Shown one piece after another: positions 2 to 54,615 of a stretch of 64,000 nucleotides of DNA. The position numbers and the translations under genes were made by a program. Source of the DNA: Escherichia phage VerenaGrendelmeier_Bas101; sequence record PQ850631.1; one strand, 5' to 3'. Each line of letters opens with the position of its first letter. Within the stretch, counting starts at the first letter, position 1. The notes beneath the pieces were generated by a model. That model searched no databases. It saw nothing but the letters and a program-made list of their open reading frames with translations, and was not told the DNA's origin.

Positions 2-781
2 CCATCCAACGCTATTGCGATGGCCTATCGTCGTGAGATGAAAGGTCTTTGCTATGCGATGATTGACGACTATCAAGCAGGAATTGCTGAGTGGCTTGAA
101 AAGAAGCAGGTGAAAAAGTTCTTTGCGCAAGACTCTGCTGATTCAACTTTTCAGACCTTGATGAAGCGCCTTCAACTGAAATGGGCAAAAGCATTCGCCC
201 GTGTTGGGTCAAAGATTGCTGCAGATTTCATCAAGTCAGTTGAAAAGGGTGCGACTTCTGCTACATTCGCAAGTCTTAAATCTGCAGGAATAGAAGCGCC
301 AAAAGCCACATATAATAAATTCGTTGAGAACACTCTTAAAACAAGCGAGACGTTCAACACGACTCTAGTGACTAAGGTTGGCGAGGATATTCACAACAGG
401 GTGTACGAAGCGGTGATGCTTTCGCTGACTTCGCCAGACCCAGCGCAGCAAGGCACATCCGGCATTCAGGCGGCACTAAGGAATGTAAAACAATTCTCTG
501 CAAAACGCGTAGACCTTATCGCCAAAGACCAAACGAGCAAACTTTATTGCGTATTAAGTGATGAAAGGATGCGACAGAATGGCGTTGAGGAATTTGAGTG
601 GGCGCATTCAGGAGCAGGCAAAGAGCCGCGAATATCACATGAGCACGTCGACGGCATGAGATTCAAGCTTGATGACAAACGCTTATGGGAAGTAGGTGGA
701 GAACTTAAGTTCAAAAAGGGTGACATCGGTCCTCCTGGATGGGCAATACACTGCAAGTGCAGAAAAATACCAATTATCTGA
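2..781 (+). CDS. head morphogenesis protein, MuF/SPP1 gp7-like (5'-partial at window edge)
   Basis: Frame is open from the window start. C-terminal motif HSGAGKEPRISHEHVDGMRF...PPGWAIHCKCR is typical of the Mu F head morphogenesis domain. Confidence 0.65.
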   Translation, partial: PSNAIAMAYRREMKGLCYAMIDDYQAGIAEWLEKKQVKKFFAQDSADSTFQTLMKRLQLKWAKAFARVGSKIAADFIKSVEKGATSATFASLKSAGIEAPKATYNKFVENTLKTSETFNTTLVTKVGEDIHNRVYEAVMLSLTSPDPAQQGTSGIQAALRNVKQFSAKRVDLIAKDQTSKLYCVLSDERMRQNGVEEFEWAHSGAGKEPRISHEHVDGMRFKLDDKRLWEVGGELKFKKGDIGPPGWAIHCKCRKIPII

Positions 782-788
782 GGTCATT

Positions 789-1709
789 ATGACGATACCA
801 ATCAACACATTCCCTCTATCTGGACAAACTCCAGTCTTGCCTGCGGTGTATGCTAATGGCTTGGCAATTGTCTCAGAATTCACTTCTGATAAAAACTTGA
901 TTGTTCCACTGAGCCCGCCGCTTGCATCAGGGTATAACTCAGTAGGTCAATTCTTTATGATTGGCAATGATGGCGATTCGACCAGCAAGCCTAACCTGAC
1001 ATTGTCTGTGCCTAAGATGAACATCACAGACGTTCAAACTGGCTTGACTGCATCAACAATCACCATTGCTTTTGGTGAAGCAGTGATCATAGGTATGGAG
1101 TCTGGAGGGTCGAAAAACGCTGTCGCAGTCAAAGTTGTGAAAACCAGCGGCAACCAATACACGTTACCAGCGGCAACAGCTTCCGTTCTTGGTGGCGTCA
1201 AAATAGGCACCGGAATAAGCGTAGCAGGTGATGGTACAATCAGCGTCACCCAATACTCATTGCCGATTGCCTCAGCATCTACTTTAGGCGGCGTAAAGGT
1301 CGGTACAACTCTATCAATTGATGGGTCTGGTGTGCTTAATGCAGCAGCAAGTACCGTCCAGAATGCCACTAATAGCGTCAGCAATCCTCCAACAACTTTG
1401 GTCAATCTGGCAACCTTAAACCTTCCTGCAGGGAAATGGCTTGTAACAGCAAGTCAGTTGACTGTCGCGACAGCAGGCGTTCAAGCGAATACCGGAATTA
1501 CAGTCAAATTGTCAACAAGCAATTCAGATATTACGGATGATGCATTTGCCATGTCAGCTGGAATTCGGGCTGCAGGTCGCTTCGGCGGCAACATCCCAAC
1601 AAAAGTAATTACTCTTGCCGCGCCTGGTAATGTGTATTTAAACTATCAGTGCACCGACGCGTTGACATCTACCGTTTACGGACAGATCACCGCAATTAAG
1701 CTGAACTAA
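789..1709 (+). CDS. structural protein with tandem fiber-like repeats
   Basis: GAGG RBS 5 nt upstream of ATG. Internal ~32-aa repeats (PAATASVLGGVKIGTGISVAGDGTISV / PIASASTLGGVKVGTTLSIDGSGVL) resemble fiber-type repeats. Confidence 0.55.
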   Translation: MTIPINTFPLSGQTPVLPAVYANGLAIVSEFTSDKNLIVPLSPPLASGYNSVGQFFMIGNDGDSTSKPNLTLSVPKMNITDVQTGLTASTITIAFGEAVIIGMESGGSKNAVAVKVVKTSGNQYTLPAATASVLGGVKIGTGISVAGDGTISVTQYSLPIASASTLGGVKVGTTLSIDGSGVLNAAASTVQNATNSVSNPPTTLVNLATLNLPAGKWLVTASQLTVATAGVQANTGITVKLSTSNSDITDDAFAMSAGIRAAGRFGGNIPTKVITLAAPGNVYLNYQCTDALTSTVYGQITAIKLN

Positions 1710-1857: not shown

Positions 1858-1890
1858 ATTCATCGGCAAAGGATTGCCGCGAGTTTTATA

Positions 1891-2160
1891 CGTATAATGA
1901 CGTATCATCCGTATCAAGTAAGTTGTTGTTTTCAAAAGAATCTTACGGATGATACGCGTTGCCGCCGTACCATATAGGAATTCAAATAAATTAATTTAAA
2001 ATTATATATCTAATTTAATTTTATTTTTTTATAAACTCTTATATATGAAAAGTATCCGTATCATCCGTATCATCCGTAGCACACCAGTGATAGCGCGACT
2101 TATACACCGATACGGATAAAAATACGCCTCATTTTATCCGTATCATCCGTATCACACTAA
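1891..2160. repeat. iteron-like region: at least 8 copies of the 9-10-mer TCATCCGTA(TCA), both orientations, flanking an AT-rich tract (1981-2050)
   Basis: Copies at 1905-1916, 1943-1953 (rc), 2052-2078 (three tandem), 2109-2118 (rc), 2135-2154. Shares blocks with 54327-54615. Confidence 0.7.
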
Positions 2161-2211
2161 TAAAGGCGCGGCTATATCGGTTGTTATACATATTCAAACC
2201 ATAATTATTGT

Positions 2212-2240
2212 TTGCCTAAGTTTTTTTCATTAGATATAAT
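2212..2240 (+). promoter_or_regulatory. sigma70-like promoter TTGCCT-17-TATAAT for the structural operon
   Basis: -35 at 2212-2217, 17-bp spacer, -10 at 2235-2240, about 25 nt upstream of the 2264 start. Confidence 0.4.
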
Positions 2241-2263
2241 ACACAATACTTATTTGAGGGTGG

Positions 2264-3685
2264 ATGCGAATGCAAACGGCACGCGAAATTGACAAAAATG
2301 GATTCTTGACGATTATGGGTTGTCCAATTTCGTCATTTGGCATTTTTGATTATTCTGCTGGTCAAGTTGGTCTTGATGGTGATCCGAATCGCATCGTAAA
2401 AGTCTATCGCCCTGAGTCAGCGGTGAAAGACCCCGAAGCGATAGATTCATTCAAAAATATCCCTTTCATCGACAATCACGAAATGCTTTCTGGATTTGAA
2501 GGTGATGAGGATAACACGGCACCCGAAGAGTATGGTGTCGATGGCGTTCTAACTGGCAATGTTTATTATGACAAGCCATGGATGCGCGGCGACCTTAAAG
2601 TGTTCAGCCGTCGTCTTAAGAAGGCCATTGATTCTGGAAAGGTTGACTTGTCTTTGGGCTATGACTGTGAATTCATCATACAGTCTGGAGAGTTTGACGG
2701 GCAGCCGTATGAAGTGGTGCAGACAACTCTTCGCGGCAACCACATTGCTCTCGTGGACGTTGGTCGAGTACCAGGTGCACGGGTGCTGGATGGTCGTTGC
2801 TTTGACCATCTTTGTTTGACGACTGTAACACCATCCAACGAGGATTTAGACATGCCAAAACCGTTAAAAGGTAAAGCGCGTGATAATGCTGTTGAACAGC
2901 TGAAATCACTGATCCCTGCGCTCGAACAATTTCTGAATGAAGAGAGTGCTGAAGCTGCTCATCAGGACGAAGTTGAAGTGAAAGCAGAAGAGAAGGACTC
3001 AACCGAAAATCGTGAAGAAGTAATGGTTGATCCAGAAGTCAAGGCAGAAGCAGAAGAAACCCCAGAAGGTGAAGAGAAGTTTGAAGTTGAAACTGAATCT
3101 CACGCTGACGGCGAACTTCCGCAATTGATCAGCCAAATCGAAGCACTTATTGCAAAACTGAAAGGTGGCGCGGTAGGTGATGAAGAAGAAGTTGAAGCCG
3201 AAGTCAAAGACGAAGAAGAAGTTGAAGTCAAGGCTGAAGATGTATCACCTTGCGACAAAGCTGAAGATGTGGTTAGCGGCCTGCAAAACAGCAACGTAAA
3301 GGGGGCTTCGGTCGAAAAAGATGACAAACCGACAAAAGCGGCGAAAGCGTCGCCAGGTCCAGCAAAAGGGGAACACTCAATGGCATCTGATTCAGCAGTT
3401 GCTGCTTTCTACGCTGATTCTGCTCGTAAGAATAGCCTCTACCAGCGCCTGTCTAAAGTTGTTGGTGCCTTTGATCATGCAACTATGGACTCCAAGTCCG
3501 TAGCGAAATATGGCGCTAAAAAGTTAGGCTTGAAGTGCGTTGATGGTGCTGAGTTTGACGTGGTGGATAATTATCTGCGCGGCGTTGAGCACGGTCAAAA
3601 ACAGCGTGTAGTCGCAAAACAAAAGGCCGCTGCGGATTCTGCAGCAACTGACGAAGCATTTGAAGCTTGGTTGAAAGGGGAATAA
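2264..3685 (+). CDS. capsid maturation protease / scaffolding-like protein (DUF2213-like N-terminal domain, acidic repeat C-terminal half)
   Basis: N-terminal 200 aa resemble phage prohead protease-like domains. C-terminal half is highly acidic with tandem EEEVEAEVKDEEEVEVKAED repeats. An in-frame ATG at 2270 has better RBS spacing. Confidence 0.5.
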   Translation: MRMQTAREIDKNGFLTIMGCPISSFGIFDYSAGQVGLDGDPNRIVKVYRPESAVKDPEAIDSFKNIPFIDNHEMLSGFEGDEDNTAPEEYGVDGVLTGNVYYDKPWMRGDLKVFSRRLKKAIDSGKVDLSLGYDCEFIIQSGEFDGQPYEVVQTTLRGNHIALVDVGRVPGARVLDGRCFDHLCLTTVTPSNEDLDMPKPLKGKARDNAVEQLKSLIPALEQFLNEESAEAAHQDEVEVKAEEKDSTENREEVMVDPEVKAEAEETPEGEEKFEVETESHADGELPQLISQIEALIAKLKGGAVGDEEEVEAEVKDEEEVEVKAEDVSPCDKAEDVVSGLQNSNVKGASVEKDDKPTKAAKASPGPAKGEHSMASDSAVAAFYADSARKNSLYQRLSKVVGAFDHATMDSKSVAKYGAKKLGLKCVDGAEFDVVDNYLRGVEHGQKQRVVAKQKAAADSAATDEAFEAWLKGE

Positions 3686-3687
3686 AC

Positions 3688-4305
3688 ATGATTTTCCAAA
3701 CTAGTGTAGGCCGTCAATATACAACTGGCTTTCCTGGCGACATCGTTCGCGACGGCCCACAGCGTGGGAAGCCAGGCCGAATCGTTAGCGCCAACGACGG
3801 TGCAAACGTAAACGCCATCAGCCGTGTGTTTGGTTTTAAGGCTGACGTGTCATTAATGGGTACTGGCCAAACCAAAACCTTGGGCGCGCAGGACTTTGAA
3901 GTTGAACTGGGCGGCACCAATTACTATGGCATCCTTGGCAACAGCAAGCGTTACGCTCTGTATGGCAACTCTACTGGTCCTTTGGGTGCCAGCATGGTTC
4001 TGCCTCAATATAGCGAAGGCGAGTTCTATGATATGTGCACGGGCCTCGTAGTTGAAGTATTCAACCCAAGCACCAGTCCGCAGACGCTGAACTACGGCGA
4101 CCTGCTCGCTTATGTACCTAAAGGCATTTCCAGCGGTAACAACCCGAACAACTTGCCTATCGGTGCAATTATCGCCTATACTGGCTCACTGCCAACTGGC
4201 ATGGTTGCCATTCCAGGCGGTATCGTGATTGACCCGACTGCTATTGCCCTTTCCGGCCCAAGCGTCCAGTCTTCCACTTATACCATTGTACAATTGACTC
4301 GTTAA
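3688..4305 (+). CDS. head protein of unknown function (possible decoration/cement protein)
   Basis: AAGGGG RBS then ATG at 3688; lies between protease/scaffold and major capsid genes. Confidence 0.4.
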   Translation: MIFQTSVGRQYTTGFPGDIVRDGPQRGKPGRIVSANDGANVNAISRVFGFKADVSLMGTGQTKTLGAQDFEVELGGTNYYGILGNSKRYALYGNSTGPLGASMVLPQYSEGEFYDMCTGLVVEVFNPSTSPQTLNYGDLLAYVPKGISSGNNPNNLPIGAIIAYTGSLPTGMVAIPGGIVIDPTAIALSGPSVQSSTYTIVQLTR

Positions 4306-4319
4306 TAGGCAGGTGAATA

Positions 4320-5459
4320 ATGACTCGCATTAGCCAAACACACTCTCGCCTCCCAGCGAGCAAGGTGCGCCCTTTTGATATGCAATCCGTTACTGACGCG
4401 GCTGTTTCCCAGCTTGCTCGTATCGGTATTGTGTTTGATTCCGCGATTGTGCGTGATCAGATTGAGCACTTAAACCGTGCAGGCGCTTTCCGCGTAGGTG
4501 ACGCCGCGTTTACTGCGCCGCAGACTACTCCGTCAATCCCGACCCCGTTGCAATTCCTGCAGCAGTGGCTGCCTGGCTTCGTCAAAATCATGACCGCTGC
4601 TCGTAAAATCGACGAGCTGGTTGGTATTGATACCGTTGGTCAGTGGGAAGATGCAGAAATCGTTCAGGGCATCGTTGAACCAGCTGGCACCGCAGTTGAA
4701 TATGGTGATTTCACATCTATTCCTCTGGCAAGCTGGAACGTAAACTTTGAACGTCGTTCTATCGTTCGTGGCGAAATGGGCATGGCAGTTGGTATGCTGG
4801 AAGAAGGCCGCGCATCCGCTATGCGTCTGAACTCCGCAGAAACCAAGCGCCAGCAGGCTGCTGTATCTCTGGAAATCATGCGTAACGCAATCGGCTTCTA
4901 TGGTTGGTACAACGGGAACAACCGCACATTCGGCTTCCTGAATGATCCAAACCTGCCAGCAGCGATGACTTCCAACACCACTTCCGGCTGGGCTACTGCG
5001 ACTTTCCAACAGGTAACTGCAGACATCCGTTTGATGGTTCGTCAAATTCGTGTGAACTCTCAGGACCAGATTGATCCAGAGAAAGTTGACATGACTCTGG
5101 CGCTGCCGACTAACTCTATCGATTGGCTGTCCAACACCACTGACTTCGGTATTTCTGTACGTGACTGGATCACCCAGACTTATCCGAAGATGAAGATCAA
5201 ATCTGCACCGGAACTCAACGGCGCACTTGGCAGTGACCCGACTTTCTTGAACGTGGCATACCTGTACGCCGATCACATCGATTCCTCAATCGATGGTTCA
5301 AGCGATGATGGTTCCGTATTCAGTCAGCTGGTTCAAACCAAGTTCATGACTCTGGGCGTTGAAAAGCGTGCTAAGAGCTACGTTGAAGACTACGCAAACG
5401 CAACAGCAGGCGTTCTGCTCAAGCGTCCGTTCGCAGTCGTCCGTATGACTGGTATTTAA
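4320..5459 (+). CDS. major capsid protein
   Basis: 379 aa, position after scaffold, strongly optimised codon usage, followed by a hairpin; resembles the DUF2184-type capsid family. Confidence 0.7.
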
Positions 5460-5486
5460 TTGCTGTGATTACACAGTAAAACACAT

Positions 5487-5512
5487 GGGGCGTGGTCGAA
5501 AGGCTTCGCCCC
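5487..5512 (+). terminator. GC-rich hairpin after capsid gene (attenuator/terminator)
   Basis: GGGGCG...CGCCCC stem at 5487-5512; weak U-tract. Confidence 0.4.
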
Positions 5513-5574
5513 ATATCAATAGACCTCAAGGGCTGTAGGGGCTTATCTGAGGCTTATATAAATAGGACTACAAA

Positions 5575-6039
5575 ATGTCAAAATACATCGTTTCAACTAT
5601 GTCTATGTCAGTTAACTACACTTTCTATACGGAAGTGAAAGAAAACCCGAATGCAAAAGCTGGTTCAGGCGCTCTTCCAAATATTCGCAAACAGATTCTA
5701 ATCAAGGGCGGCGCTGGTCTTACTTCAGCAACTTCCGGCTTTGGTGAAATGGCAAAAGGCGCTGACGGTGCACCTTTGTGGACTCCTGAAGGAATCGTCA
5801 CCGTTGTAAGCGATGCAGATTTTGAGCATCTGAAAGATCATCACGTGTTTAAGCAGCATCTTGAAAAAGGTTTGGTGAAAGTCGTAAATCACGACATTGT
5901 TGGCAACCACAAAGCCGTCGCTAAAGAAGTTCGCAGCATGTCAGACGACCCGTTTGCGCCTATGACGCGCGAAACTGCTGACAAGCGCATCAAGGTAAAA
6001 TTGAGCGGCGACCAAGAAGATGATTTGTTCCGCGTTTAA
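5575..6039 (+). CDS. hypothetical structural protein
   Basis: ORF with ATG start in the structural operon. Confidence 0.45.
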   Translation: MSKYIVSTMSMSVNYTFYTEVKENPNAKAGSGALPNIRKQILIKGGAGLTSATSGFGEMAKGADGAPLWTPEGIVTVVSDADFEHLKDHHVFKQHLEKGLVKVVNHDIVGNHKAVAKEVRSMSDDPFAPMTRETADKRIKVKLSGDQEDDLFRV

Positions 6040-54326: not shown

Positions 54327-54615
54327 GCGTATAATGACGTAAGATTTGGACCTATCCGTAGTTCACTCCACACACTTCTATGGTGCGCCGCGACTGGGTT
54401 CAGTGGTACATCTTACGGATGATACGGATGATACGCGTCGCCGCTATACTTTATACAACTTTGAAAAAAACAATTAACTCCATTTTGAATTAATTTAAAT
54501 TAATTTTTTTCTACATCCTCATACTTATACTAAACTTATATTTATACGTATTATCCGTAAGATATAAGTAAAAACAAAGACTTGCGGCAATACGGATGAT
54601 ACGTCACGATACGCT
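54327..54615. repeat. second iteron-like region homologous to 1891-2160
   Basis: Shared blocks GCGTATAATGACGTA, ATCTTACGGATGATACG...GCCGC, AT-rich AATTAATTTAAA tract, TATCCGTA copies. Confidence 0.65.

What the first reader, a model, noticed from the sequence alone, without database searches (positions are those of the whole stretch)
2264..3685. Protease-like N-terminal domain fused to a highly acidic tandem-repeat region
The N-terminal ~200 aa resemble phage prohead protease-like domains, while the rest is an acidic low-complexity region with near-perfect tandem DNA repeats (GAAGAAGAAGTTGAAG... at 3181-3240), consistent with a scaffold delivery domain. Repeat number may vary between isolates.
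Basis: partly seen in the sequence, partly recalled or inferred. Interest (0 to 1): 0.35.

Follow-up and report, generated by a model that had tools for sequence, protein, structure and literature searches.

The report
Phage head protease-scaffold gene, probably nested
This is the head-assembly gene of a Wifcevirus-type E. coli phage: a probable capsid-maturation protease joined to an acidic scaffold, already annotated in near-identical genomes, so ordinary except that it seems to hide an unannotated internal start that would make the scaffold on its own.

Summary
The ORF is real (2264-3685, +; the true start is probably ATG 2270). The window is 99.4% identical to Escherichia phage vB_EcoM_WFC, where this gene is annotated "head maturation protease". 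It is a full-length homologue (E 1.9e-111) of Pseudomonas phage Pa193 gp24, deposited as "scaffolding protein" (PDB 9B40).

Residues 7-174 match Pfam DUF2213. His72, Ser130 and His160 are invariant in 53 homologues. The predicted fold's best solved matches are T4 gp21 and herpesvirus proteases, though only weakly. Sequence-profile links to known protease families fail.

The remainder is not simply acidic low complexity. It holds two conserved helices, two acidic disordered stretches whose negative charge is conserved, and a conserved folded helical C-terminal domain.

The "near-perfect tandem repeat" is two 30-nt units, 77% identical. Ten related genomes differ there by only one GAA codon.

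New here: a conserved internal ATG (2852) with a Shine-Dalgarno motif in 13 of 14 diverse homologues (background 8%). This implies a nested 277-aa scaffold, as in lambda C/Nu3 and Mu I/Z.

Published virion proteomics show the N-domain and acidic middle abundant but the C-domain nearly absent. Verdict: a known kind, modest interest.

The parts
2212..2240 (+). Sigma-70-like promoter candidate (TTGCCT-17-TATAAT) ahead of the gene, at the end of a ~400-nt intergenic region
   Evidence: Consensus scan, 10 of 12 matches. This is a consensus match only and has not been shown to function.
2253..2260 (+). Shine-Dalgarno-like GAGGGTGG for the full-length product
   Evidence: Read directly from the sequence. 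It lies 9 nt before ATG 2270 and only 3 nt before ATG 2264.
2270..3685 (+). Full-length protease-scaffold gene (471 aa from ATG 2270; the mechanical ORF starts at ATG 2264 and gives 473 aa). Residue numbers in this report use the 473-aa numbering.
   Evidence: ORF list. 99% identical to cluster P0001, 471 aa. Annotated 'head maturation protease' in WFC, Bas100, FEC19 and ECML-117. Full-length homologue of Pa193 gp24, PDB 9B40 chain G, E 1.9e-111.
2282..2785 (+). N-terminal DUF2213 / Pa193_gp24 domain (aa 7-174): beta-rich, protease-like, with candidate catalytic His72, Ser130 and His160
   Evidence: Pfam PF09979, E 4.5e-35. H72, S130 and H160 are invariant in 53 homologues. AF2 pLDDT >90. Foldseek top solved matches are T4 gp21 and EBV/KSHV/HCMV/VZV proteases, with E 4e-3 to 0.5. 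Predicted COG3740 proteases match at E~1e-6.
2840..2854 (+). Internal Shine-Dalgarno GAGGA (2840-2844), 7-nt spacer, then in-frame ATG 2852 (Met197): the inferred start of a nested scaffold gene
   Evidence: Met197 is >=90% conserved in an otherwise variable disordered linker. 13 of 14 diverse homologues carry GGAG/GAGG/AGGA 4-11 nt upstream of this ATG. The background is 7.9% at any codon and 6.8% at other Met codons.
2852..3685 (+). Inferred nested scaffold product (aa 197-473; 277 aa; net charge -27)
   Evidence: Inferred. Arrangement analogous to lambda C/nu3 and Mu I/Z. Virion MS shows 3-4 times more spectra for the middle region than for the N-domain.
2879..2947 (+). Conserved linker helices (aa 206-228, NAVEQLKSLIPALEQFLNEE)
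   Evidence: Conserved in A1. Helices 206-215 and 217-228 in the model, pLDDT ~80.
2963..3109 (+). Acidic disordered segment 1 (aa 234-282; 43% D/E; net -16)
   Evidence: pLDDT <50. Charge. Length varies from 33 to 93 aa in homologues, but net charge is always negative (-7 to -24).
3110..3166 (+). Conserved amphipathic helix (aa 283-301, GELPQLISQIEALIAKLKG), equivalent to the Pa193 gp24 interior helix that forms a pentamer under capsid pentons
   Evidence: Aligned with Pa193 gp24 residues 306-324. All six core positions reported for Pa193 (V308, I312, V315, L319, L322, A326) are hydrophobic here (L285, I289, I292, I296, L299, A303). Structure described in PMC11456595. The capsid contact motif YPKM[R/K] is conserved.
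3167..3358 (+). Acidic disordered segment 2 (aa 302-365; 30% D/E; net -11), which contains the short duplication
   Evidence: pLDDT <50. Charge.
3179..3238 (+). Two adjacent 30-nt units (DEEEVEAEVK / DEEEVEVKAE), 77% identical, sharing an exact 16-mer at 3182 and 3212
   Evidence: The only polymorphism in 10 related genomes is +/- one GAA codon.
3359..3682 (+). Conserved helical C-terminal domain (aa 366-473; net +1), apparently removed from virions
   Evidence: Invariant D376, D385, G401, F403 and Y416. pLDDT >90 with helices 375-400, 410-421, 430-458 and 464-470. Only 3 of 1574 and 1 of 852 spectra map here in two CsCl-purified phages.
3667..4305 (+). Downstream cement/decoration protein gene, same operon. 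The mechanical ORF is shown; the annotated start in relatives is equivalent to ATG 3688.
   Evidence: Pfam Phage_cement (E217 gp24 / Pam3 gp6), E 3.7e-8. phrog_3645, E 5.8e-63.
4320..5459 (+). Major capsid protein gene, the presumed substrate. The inferred maturation cut is after Ala62 (D61-A62|A63-F64).
   Evidence: 66% identical to Pa193 gp26. Pa193 and E217 capsid models begin at residue 66, which corresponds to A63 here. D61 is invariant and F64 nearly invariant in 109 homologues.

Best explanation
The gene encodes the combined capsid-maturation protease and scaffolding protein of a Wifcevirus-type myophage (family Lindbergviridae in one of the GenBank records fetched), and it probably makes two products in one reading frame.

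- Full-length product: 471 aa from ATG 2270. It carries an N-terminal assemblin/HK97-like serine-protease domain with candidate catalytic residues His72, Ser130 and His160.
- Nested product: 277 aa from an internal Shine-Dalgarno plus ATG at 2852. This is the scaffold alone.
- Shared C-terminal part: linker helices, two acidic disordered arms, an amphipathic helix that pentamerises and docks under the capsid pentons, and a folded helical C-terminal domain.

Proposed mechanism:

1. The two products co-assemble with the major capsid protein into the T=9 procapsid. A minority of chains carry the protease, as in lambda C/Nu3 and Mu I/Z.
2. The protease removes about 62 N-terminal residues of the capsid protein.
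3. The protease also trims the scaffold, detaching its C-terminal domain.
4. Unlike classical scaffolds, the protease domain and the acidic middle stay in the mature head. The helix remains as a plug under the pentons.

Basis for each step:

- Shown (computed here or published for homologues): homology, domain layout, conserved residues, conserved internal SD+ATG, the penton-bound helix in Pa193, and the peptide distribution in Wifcevirus virions.
- Inferred: catalytic activity, use of the internal start, the cleavage sites, and the assembly role of each segment.
For: Identity and context:
- 99.4% DNA identity to phage WFC, with the gene annotated as head maturation protease.
- Gene order is portal, Mu-F-like, head-fibre-like, this gene, cement, MCP. 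No other protease or scaffold is annotated in the module.
- Full-length homology to Pa193 gp24. Residues 286-326 of gp24 form a pentameric helix-turn-helix bound to the capsid interior at 5-fold vertices of mature virions (PMC11456595). The helix core and the capsid contact motif are conserved here.

Protease:
- H72, S130 and H160 are invariant in 53 homologues.
- The motifs NH[ED] and a helix followed by xSxG[FY] match HK97 gp4 (FNH65K, GMS114VGF) and T4 gp21 (LNH85P, GVS140S). The best local hhalign segment places S130 on HK97 Ser114.
- Foldseek's best solved matches are T4 gp21 (prob 0.95) and the EBV protease (prob 0.99), followed by KSHV, HCMV and VZV proteases.
- Predicted COG3740 and 'capsid maturation protease' structures match at E 1e-6 to 1e-5.
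- An independent annotator reported HHpred 78% to T4 gp21.

Substrate:
- Pa193 and E217 capsid proteins lack their first 65 residues in the maps.
- The boundary D61-[SA]|[AN]-F is conserved (D61 invariant, F64 108 of 109).

Nested start:
- 13 of 14 homologues have an SD core before the conserved ATG, against 7.9% background. The SD is kept through different amino acids: NEDLD, DEGNE, DKESTI, NGGAI, PGEKD.
- Precedents share a stop codon in the same way: lambda C/nu3 and Mu I/Z.

Fate (CsCl-purified vB_Eco4M-7 and ECML-117, PMC7048862):
- The homologue is the second- and the top-scoring protein respectively (1574 and 852 spectra, against 333 and 56 for MCP).
- Spectra split 302/1269/3 and 193/658/1 across N-domain, residues 195-356 and C-domain.

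Other:
- Negative charge of the middle region is conserved (median -25, range -13 to -41) despite free sequence and length.
Against: - No biochemical evidence of proteolysis exists for any DUF2213 protein that I could find.
- Sequence-profile comparisons with T4 gp21, HK97 gp4 and Mu gpI are not significant (hhalign E 0.2-0.6).
- HMMER finds no peptidase family.
- No Foldseek match to a solved structure reaches E 1e-3, and TM-scores are 0.3-0.4.
- I could not inspect the model coordinates, so the geometry of the triad is untested.
- The internal start rests on conservation only. The 14 sequences are related, so the binomial P is too optimistic. No N-terminal peptide of the short product was reported.
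- The MS samples also contained non-structural proteins and some capsid-protein propeptide (DQIEHLNR, 14 spectra). They were therefore not purely mature virions.
- Spectral counts are only roughly quantitative, and the search was tryptic, so cleavage sites are not observed.
- In E217 no penton-bound helix was seen.
Confidence: 0.7

Rival explanations
1. It is a pure scaffolding or internal head protein with no catalytic activity. On this view the DUF2213 domain is a structural module that merely shares a beta-barrel shape with assemblin-like proteases. The capsid protein N-terminus is either disordered rather than cleaved, or is cleaved by a host protease.
For: - The Pa193 depositors call it a 'scaffolding protein' and never mention a protease.
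- All sequence-profile links to protease families fail.
- Structural matches to solved proteases are below the usual significance.
- Both cryo-EM papers leave open that MCP residues 1-65 are merely disordered.
- Some MCP propeptide peptides are detected in virion preparations.
- The N-domain is retained in virions, which is unusual for a prohead protease.
Against: - His, Ser and His are invariant at the positions and in the motif contexts typical of HK97/T4/herpesvirus proteases.
- The top solved structural matches are two independent assemblin-fold protease families, not random beta-barrels.
- Matches to predicted COG3740 proteases reach E~1e-6.
- The E217 entry deposits MCP as a 317-residue chain starting at the residue equivalent to A63.
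- The residues flanking that boundary are invariant.
- The C-domain of this very protein is selectively missing from virions, so some proteolysis occurs.
- No other protease is annotated in the genome.
Confidence: 0.15
2. It is a single-product fusion only. On this view the conserved Met197 and the purine-rich codons before it reflect protein-level constraints, for example a protease self-cleavage site or a linker motif, and not an internal ribosome start.
For: - No database annotation lists a nested gene in any of the records looked at.
- The acidic/glycine-rich residues preceding Met (E, D, G, K) are common in this linker and naturally give purine-rich codons.
- P2 gpO-type protease-scaffold fusions work as one polypeptide (own knowledge, not tested here).
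Against: - The SD core sits at a fixed 4-11 nt distance in 13 of 14 homologues, while only 6.8% of the other 118 Met codons and 7.9% of all codons in the same acidic genes have one.
- The amino acids encoding the SD differ between lineages while the GGAG/GAGG/AGGA core persists.
- Met is otherwise not conserved in this variable linker.
- The middle region has 3-4 times more spectra than the N-domain.
Confidence: 0.25
3. The GAA-rich repeat is a contingency locus whose copy number varies between isolates to tune scaffold length or capsid properties.
For: - The only indel in the gene among 10 genomes lies in the GAA run of the second unit.
- The lengths of the acidic segments vary widely between distant homologues, from 43 to 93 aa.
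Against: - There are only two units at 77% identity.
- Unit number is constant in all 10 genomes, and the difference is a single codon.
- No longer arrays occur in the homologues aligned.
Confidence: 0.03

Closest known systems
Pseudomonas phage Pa193 gp24 (PDB 9B40 chain G; Pfam PF09979, DUF2213 / 'Pa193_gp24'), and its orthologues in Pbunavirus, Wifcevirus, Myosmarvirus, Carpasinavirus and Bcepfunavirus phages
   Same: - Full-length homologue: 44% identity by tblastn, E 1.9e-111 by phmmer.
- Same length class (471 vs 478 aa) and the same five-part layout.
- Same position in the genome, before the cement and MCP genes.
- Conserved penton-binding helix and conserved internal SD+ATG.
   Different: - The acidic arms are E/V/K-rich here, and G/A/E-rich in most relatives.
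- The short 30-nt duplication is specific to Wifceviruses.
- No structure or cryo-EM map exists for this phage.
Lambda C protease / Nu3 scaffold and Mu gpI protease / gpZ scaffold (nested in-frame genes)
   Same: - A long product has an N-terminal protease. A shorter in-frame product from an internal start shares the C-terminus and acts as the scaffold.
- The gene sits just upstream of the decoration and major capsid genes.
   Different: - Lambda C is an S49 (ClpP-like) peptidase, a different fold.
- Mu gpI shows no detectable profile similarity.
- In lambda and Mu the scaffold is removed. Here a large part seems to stay in the virion.
- The internal start here is inferred, not shown.
HK97 gp4 (MEROPS S78), T4 gp21 (S77) and herpesvirus assemblin (S21) prohead proteases
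   Same: - Best structural matches of the predicted N-domain.
- Same order of motifs: His after a strand (NH[ED]), then a helix followed by xSxG[FY] with the nucleophile Ser.
- His/Ser/His spacing of 72/130/160 resembles HCMV assemblin 63/132/157 (own knowledge).
- T4 gp21 also removes 65 residues from its capsid protein, is pentameric and has an internal start.
   Different: - No significant sequence or profile similarity.
- TM-scores are only 0.3-0.4.
- Those proteases largely leave or self-destruct, whereas this domain is abundant in virions.
- Those proteins are about 210-225 aa and lack a long acidic scaffold (herpesvirus assemblin is fused to its scaffold, which is a closer analogy).
P22 gp8 scaffolding protein, coat-binding helix-turn-helix
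   Same: A helix-turn-helix contacts the capsid interior electrostatically, as argued by the Pa193 authors.
   Different: - P22 gp8 has no protease, exits intact and is recycled.
- Its helix-turn-helix is C-terminal and lies parallel to the shell. Here the helix is internal, perpendicular, pentameric and persistent.

Membership tests
Pfam PF09979 (DUF2213 / Pa193_gp24) | Score above the curated gathering threshold of the family HMM | tested here: met
   121.5 bits against a cut-off of 22. E 4.5e-35, aa 7-174 covering profile positions 1-162 of 167. All 24 members of A2 match.
Pa193 gp24-type protease/scaffold orthologues (Pbunavirus-like head module) | Full-length collinear homology including the penton-binding helix and the C-terminal domain | tested here: met
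   phmmer alignment covers query 5-473 against gp24 4-478. 53-sequence alignment with a conserved helix 283-301 and conserved C-domain.
Pa193 gp24-type protease/scaffold orthologues (Pbunavirus-like head module) | Synteny: immediately upstream of the cement (PF22758) and major capsid (PF09950) genes | tested here: met
Pa193 gp24-type protease/scaffold orthologues (Pbunavirus-like head module) | Pentameric helix bound under the capsid pentons in the virion | not testable with these tools
   Seen only by cryo-EM in Pa193 and not seen in E217. Here only the conservation of the helix core and of the MCP YPKM[R/K] contact could be checked.
Assemblin-fold prohead serine proteases (MEROPS S21/S77/S78; Pfam clan Peptidase_SH, clan name from memory) | Significant sequence or profile similarity to a member family | tested here: not met
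   - hhalign against the T4 gp21 family: E 0.32.
- Against HK97 gp4: E 0.2.
- Against Mu gpI: E 0.6.
- No peptidase family found by HMMER in Pfam, NCBIfam or PDB sequences.
Assemblin-fold prohead serine proteases (MEROPS S21/S77/S78; Pfam clan Peptidase_SH, clan name from memory) | Shared fold | tested here: inconclusive
   - Top solved matches are T4 gp21 (E 4e-3, prob 0.95), the EBV protease (E 8.8e-3, prob 0.99), and KSHV, HCMV and VZV proteases.
- No match reaches E <= 1e-3, and TM-scores are 0.3-0.4.
- Predicted COG3740 and maturation-protease models in BFVD match at E 1e-6 to 1e-5.
Assemblin-fold prohead serine proteases (MEROPS S21/S77/S78; Pfam clan Peptidase_SH, clan name from memory) | Conserved catalytic His and Ser (plus a third His/Asp/Glu) in the canonical order | tested here: met
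   H72, S130 and H160 are invariant in 53 sequences. The best local hhalign segment puts S130 on HK97 Ser114 and next to T4 Ser140. The three-dimensional geometry was not checked.
Assemblin-fold prohead serine proteases (MEROPS S21/S77/S78; Pfam clan Peptidase_SH, clan name from memory) | Demonstrated cleavage of capsid or scaffold proteins | not testable with these tools
   Indirect evidence only. MCP residues 1-65 are missing from the Pa193 and E217 maps. The C-domain of the protein is missing from virion MS.
Nested protease/scaffold gene pairs (lambda C/nu3, Mu I/Z type) | In-frame internal start with a ribosome-binding site, sharing the stop codon with the long product | tested here: met
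   GAGGA-7 nt-ATG at 2840-2854. An SD core is present in 13 of 14 homologues against 7.9% background. This is sequence evidence only.
Nested protease/scaffold gene pairs (lambda C/nu3, Mu I/Z type) | The short product is actually made, in excess over the long one | not testable with these tools
   The only hint is 3-4 times more spectra for the region downstream of Met197 than for the N-domain.
Variable-number tandem repeat / contingency locus | Three or more near-identical units, or unit-number polymorphism between isolates | tested here: not met
   Two units at 77% identity. Unit number is constant in 10 genomes, with only a one-codon indel.

The most novel reading that the evidence does not exclude
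DUF2213 proteins may form a distinct class of head protein that is protease, scaffold and permanent capsid component at once. The gene would make protease-scaffold and scaffold-only chains from nested starts. After assembly only the C-terminal domain would be discarded. The protease domain and the strongly acidic arms would stay inside the DNA-filled head in amounts comparable to the capsid protein. The conserved helix would rivet the pentons, and the retained acidic mass would have a function of its own, such as tuning internal pressure or DNA packing, or entering the host with the DNA.
Probability: 0.2. Interest if true: 0.55.

Novelty: new member of a known kind. Interest (0 to 1): 0.3.

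Why it matters
The gene itself is ordinary. It is the head protease/scaffold gene of a well-sampled phage group used in phage therapy and biocontrol (Wifcevirus, Pbunavirus), and it is already annotated.

Two points could be useful.

1. Databases name the same protein 'head maturation protease' in some records and 'scaffolding protein' in others, including the PDB entry. The evidence here suggests both labels are right, because the gene probably yields a protease-scaffold fusion plus a nested scaffold. This would correct the annotation of several hundred phage genomes (383 records in the phage collection, about 6000 clusters in metagenomes).
2. Published proteomics, re-read by region, suggests an unusual fate. 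The C-terminal domain is lost, while the protease domain and acidic arms stay in the virion. This would explain the penton-bound helix seen in Pa193 and gives a concrete, testable maturation scheme.

Tried and rejected
- HMM search of the 53-sequence family profile against all PDB sequences: only Pa193 gp24 was found, no protease.
- hhalign of a 191-sequence N-domain alignment against a 121-sequence T4 gp21 alignment, and against HK97 gp4 and Mu gpI: not significant. The gp21 set was shallow (>=65% identity), which limits this test.
- Pfam at E<=5 on 24 N-domains, and NCBIfam on both products: no peptidase family.
- N-domain-only structure model, made to improve the match to solved proteases: same families on top, but still E>1e-3.
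- Looked for nested or split annotations in records where the search listed two or more features under the match (kaset, vB_Pae_10, FoX7, Bm1). These were opposite-strand or neighbouring spurious ORFs, not a nested scaffold.
- Looked for RNA structure around the internal start: none beyond chance (z -0.15). The terminator-like hairpin at 2788-2811 is therefore treated as chance.
- Sought direct evidence of MCP N-terminal processing in PB1-like phages. The PB1 paper (Ceyssens 2009) is not held, two literature searches were empty, and the Pa193 supplements are not held.
- The Pakpunavirus P7-1 and Banzai papers contain nothing on a scaffold or protease.
- Considered a shared cleavage motif D-[SAN]-A at D207, D376 and D458 of the protein, matching D61-[SA]|[AN] in MCP. 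I keep it only as a hypothesis. The tryptic peptide DNAVEQLK spanning the first site is detected, and no semi-tryptic data exist.
Full report
WHAT IS THERE

The window is a Wifcevirus-type E. coli myophage. Bases 2000-6000 are 99.4% identical to Escherichia phage vB_EcoM_WFC and 96-99% identical to 27 other records. Two ATGs lie six bases apart. The motif GAGGGTGG ends 3 nt before the first and 9 nt before the second. Homologues and most annotations start at the second, so the gene is most likely 2270-3685 (471 aa). It is the first gene after a ~400-nt intergenic region with a promoter-like site at 2212-2240. The cement/decoration gene and the major capsid protein (MCP) gene follow it. Upstream lie the portal, a Mu-F-like head-morphogenesis gene and a head-fibre-like gene. 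No other protease or scaffold is annotated anywhere in the WFC structural module.

CHECKING THE OBSERVATION

The N-terminal domain claim holds.
- Pfam DUF2213 covers aa 7-174 at E 4.5e-35.
- PHROG 3778, 'head maturation protease', matches at E 3.9e-171.

The acidity claim holds for the middle of the protein. Residues 236-345 are 35% Asp/Glu with net charge -28, and the whole protein has pI 4.6.

The repeat claim is overstated.
- TRF reports 2.0 copies at 80% match, score 63.
- The repeat finder gives two adjacent 30-nt units at 77% identity.
- The exact shared core is a 16-mer at 3182 and 3212, unique in the window.

I extracted the gene from ten Wifcevirus genomes. The unit number never changes. 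The only length difference in the whole gene is one GAA codon in the second unit.

'The rest is acidic low complexity' is also inaccurate, as the anatomy below shows.

ANATOMY

I aligned 53 full-length homologues at 43-75% identity, 422-525 aa, from phages of about 60-73 kb. I then predicted the structure. Five parts emerge.

1. aa 1-176: a beta-rich domain with pLDDT >90.
2. aa 206-228: conserved linker helices.
3. aa 234-282 and 302-365: two disordered acidic arms. Their sequence and length are free (33-93 and 43-83 aa), but their charge is always negative. For the whole middle region the median is -25 and the range -13 to -41.
4. aa 283-301: a conserved amphipathic helix lying between the two arms.
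5. aa 366-473: a conserved helical domain with pLDDT >90 and net charge about +1.

THE CLOSEST CHARACTERISED RELATIVE

A sequence search of the PDB finds one strong hit: chain G of 9B40, 'gp24 scaffolding protein' of Pseudomonas phage Pa193, aligned end to end at E 1.9e-111.

In that cryo-EM study, gp24 residues 286-326 form a helix-turn-helix that pentamerises. It sits 'like a dowel pin' under each capsid penton of the mature virion. The protein was also found in virions by LC-MS. The authors could not tell whether it is cleaved (PMC11456595).

The six hydrophobic core positions they list map here to L285, I289, I292, I296, L299 and A303. The acidic turn is kept. The capsid residues they name as contacts (Y291, P292, K293, R295) appear here as YPKMK. 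The penton-plug function is therefore very likely conserved. A newer Pfam labelling already names PF09979 'Pa193_gp24'.

IS THE N-DOMAIN A PROTEASE?

Evidence for:
- His72, Ser130 and His160 are invariant in all 53 sequences.
- Their contexts are IDNH72E, and a helix followed by DLS130LGY. These mirror HK97 gp4 (FFNH65K; helix then GMS114VGF) and T4 gp21 (LNH85P; helix then GVS140S).
- The best local hhalign segments fall exactly on the nucleophile region. S130 aligns with HK97 Ser114.
- Foldseek against the PDB puts T4 gp21 first for the full model (E 4e-3, prob 0.95). It puts the EBV protease first for the domain-only model (E 8.8e-3, prob 0.99). KSHV, HCMV and VZV proteases follow.
- Against predicted viral structures, HK97-type COG3740 proteases and annotated capsid maturation proteases match at E 1e-6 to 1e-5.
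- The Mansfield annotators report HHpred 78% to T4 gp21.
- There is a plausible substrate. The MCP models of Pa193 and E217 begin at residue 66, equivalent to A63 here. In 109 MCP homologues D61 is invariant and F64 is present in 108, flanking that boundary.

Evidence against:
- No profile comparison is significant: hhalign E 0.2-0.6 against the T4 gp21 family, HK97 gp4 and Mu gpI.
- HMMER finds no peptidase family in Pfam, NCBIfam or PDB sequences.
- No solved-structure match passes E 1e-3, and TM-scores are 0.3-0.4.
- I could not examine the triad geometry.
- I found no biochemical test for any member of the family.

I rate 'active assemblin-like serine protease' at about 0.7.

A NESTED SCAFFOLD GENE

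Met197 is more than 90% conserved even though it lies in a variable, disordered linker just after the protease domain. In the window it is preceded by GAGGA with a 7-nt spacer (2840-2854).

I fetched DNA for 13 further homologues: Serratia MyoSmar, Pa193, Xanthomonas FoX7, Burkholderia BcepF1 and Bm1, a contig encoding the Pantoea phage Kyle protein, and seven metagenomic contigs. Of the 14 sequences, 13 carry GGAG, GAGG or AGGA 4-11 nt upstream of the aligned ATG. The background in the same genes is 7.9% at all codons and 6.8% at the 118 other Met codons.

The motif is kept through different amino acids (NEDLD, YEDES, DEGNE, DKESTI, RKGVK, NGGAI, PGEKD). That points to selection on the nucleotides. 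The nominal binomial P of 6e-14 is too small because the sequences are related, but the signal is clear.

The implied product is a 277-aa scaffold (aa 197-473, net charge -27) that shares its stop codon with the long product. This is the arrangement of lambda C/nu3 and Mu I/Z. T4 gene 21 also has an annotated internal start. None of the database records I inspected annotates this nested product. Records that showed two features under the match turned out to carry spurious neighbouring or opposite-strand ORFs.

FATE OF THE PROTEIN

Necel et al. (PMC7048862) analysed CsCl-purified vB_Eco4M-7 and ECML-117 by LC-MS/MS. Both are about 96-99% identical to the window in this region.

Spectra for the homologue and for MCP:

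| Phage | Rank by score | Homologue | MCP |
|---|---|---|---|
| vB_Eco4M-7 | second | 1574 | 333 |
| ECML-117 | top | 852 | 56 |

Homologue spectra by region, from mapping the listed peptides:

| Phage | N-domain | Residues 195-356 | C-domain |
|---|---|---|---|
| vB_Eco4M-7 | 302 | 1269 | 3 |
| ECML-117 | 193 | 658 | 1 |

The C-domain contains four good tryptic peptides of 13-20 aa. Together they gave 1 and 0 spectra. The last well-covered residue is K358 (473-aa numbering).

This suggests three things.
- The C-terminal domain is cut off and lost.
- The protease domain and acidic middle persist in large amount.
- Chains lacking the N-domain outnumber those that have it.

Caveats: the samples also held a few non-structural proteins and some MCP propeptide (14 spectra for DQIEHLNR). 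Spectral counts are only semi-quantitative. The search was fully tryptic, so termini are not observed.

A tentative cleavage motif is D-[SAN]-A. It is conserved at D207, D376 and D458 of this protein and resembles the MCP boundary D61-[SA]|[AN]. A cut at D376-S377|A378 would fit the MS boundary. I treat this as a hypothesis only.

MOST LIKELY MECHANISM

1. One transcript yields a minor protease-scaffold chain and a major scaffold-only chain.
2. Both chains bind the inside of the growing T=9 shell. The amphipathic helix pentamerises under the pentons, and the C-terminal domain makes further contacts of an unknown kind.
3. Once the shell is closed, the Ser130/His72/His160 protease removes about 62 residues from MCP and detaches the scaffold's C-domain.
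4. The acidic remainder and the protease domain stay inside the head.

Steps 1 and 3 are inferred. Step 2 is supported for the helix by the Pa193 structure. Step 4 is supported by two proteomic data sets and by Pa193.

COMPARISON AND NOVELTY

The gene is a clear member of PF09979 and an orthologue of Pa193 gp24. It works like the lambda C/Nu3 and Mu I/Z pairs and like assemblin-type proteases. By sequence, however, it cannot be filed in MEROPS S21, S77 or S78. The finding as written is already captured by existing annotation.

The additions are the probable nested start, the region-resolved reading of the proteomics, and the reconciliation of the 'protease' and 'scaffolding protein' labels. 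These are new for this family but of a known kind. Interest is modest (0.3). It would be higher (about 0.55) if the retained protease and acidic mass prove to be functional parts of the mature head.

Noticed in passing
window 1858-2263 (also 54421-54429, - strand): The intergenic region upstream of the gene holds 6 of the window's 7 exact copies of ATCCGTATC, at 1907, 2054, 2063, 2109(-), 2136 and 2145. Only 0.31 copies are expected in the whole window. Some are tandem and one is inverted. An AT-rich block lies at about 1985-2050 and a promoter-like site at 2212-2240. Together these look like binding sites for a regulator of the head operon.
   Followed up: partly
window 696-1709 (annotated start in relatives is equivalent to about 790): This ORF has a phi29-type head-fibre motif (Pfam PF11133, E 2.1e-6) and repeated YSLP/ATAS..LGGVK segments. 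Its homologue vB_Eco4M-7_38 is the third-highest-scoring protein in virion MS (775 spectra). It may be a capsid fibre in a myophage.
   Followed up: no
window 4320-4505 (MCP residues 1-62): The MCP N-terminal segment is absent from the mature capsid models of Pa193 and E217. It is nevertheless strongly conserved in 109 homologues: L32, G36, V44 and Q47 are invariant, and S5, A28 and D40 nearly so. This suggests a functional propeptide (delta-domain-like, perhaps the scaffold's partner) and not a disposable leader.
   Followed up: partly
window 2264 vs 2270: Two in-frame ATGs lie six bases apart at the gene start. Database records are split: Bas100, Mansfield and kaset use the first, while WFC, Eco4M-7, ECML-117 and WFH use the second. 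SD spacing favours the second.
   Followed up: partly
window 2788-2811: A terminator-like hairpin followed by a T-run lies inside the coding region, 40 nt before the internal start. The region folds no better than shuffled sequence (z -0.15), so it is probably chance.
   Followed up: yes
family level (loci L019-L026): The DUF2213 domain is very widespread, with 5972 representative clusters at E<=1e-3. In the 138 most similar representatives analysed it almost always carries a long C-terminal extension (median ~210 aa). Some also have N-terminal extensions of up to ~350 aa, and one BFVD match is labelled as containing a Nudix hydrolase domain. These variant architectures were not examined.
   Followed up: no
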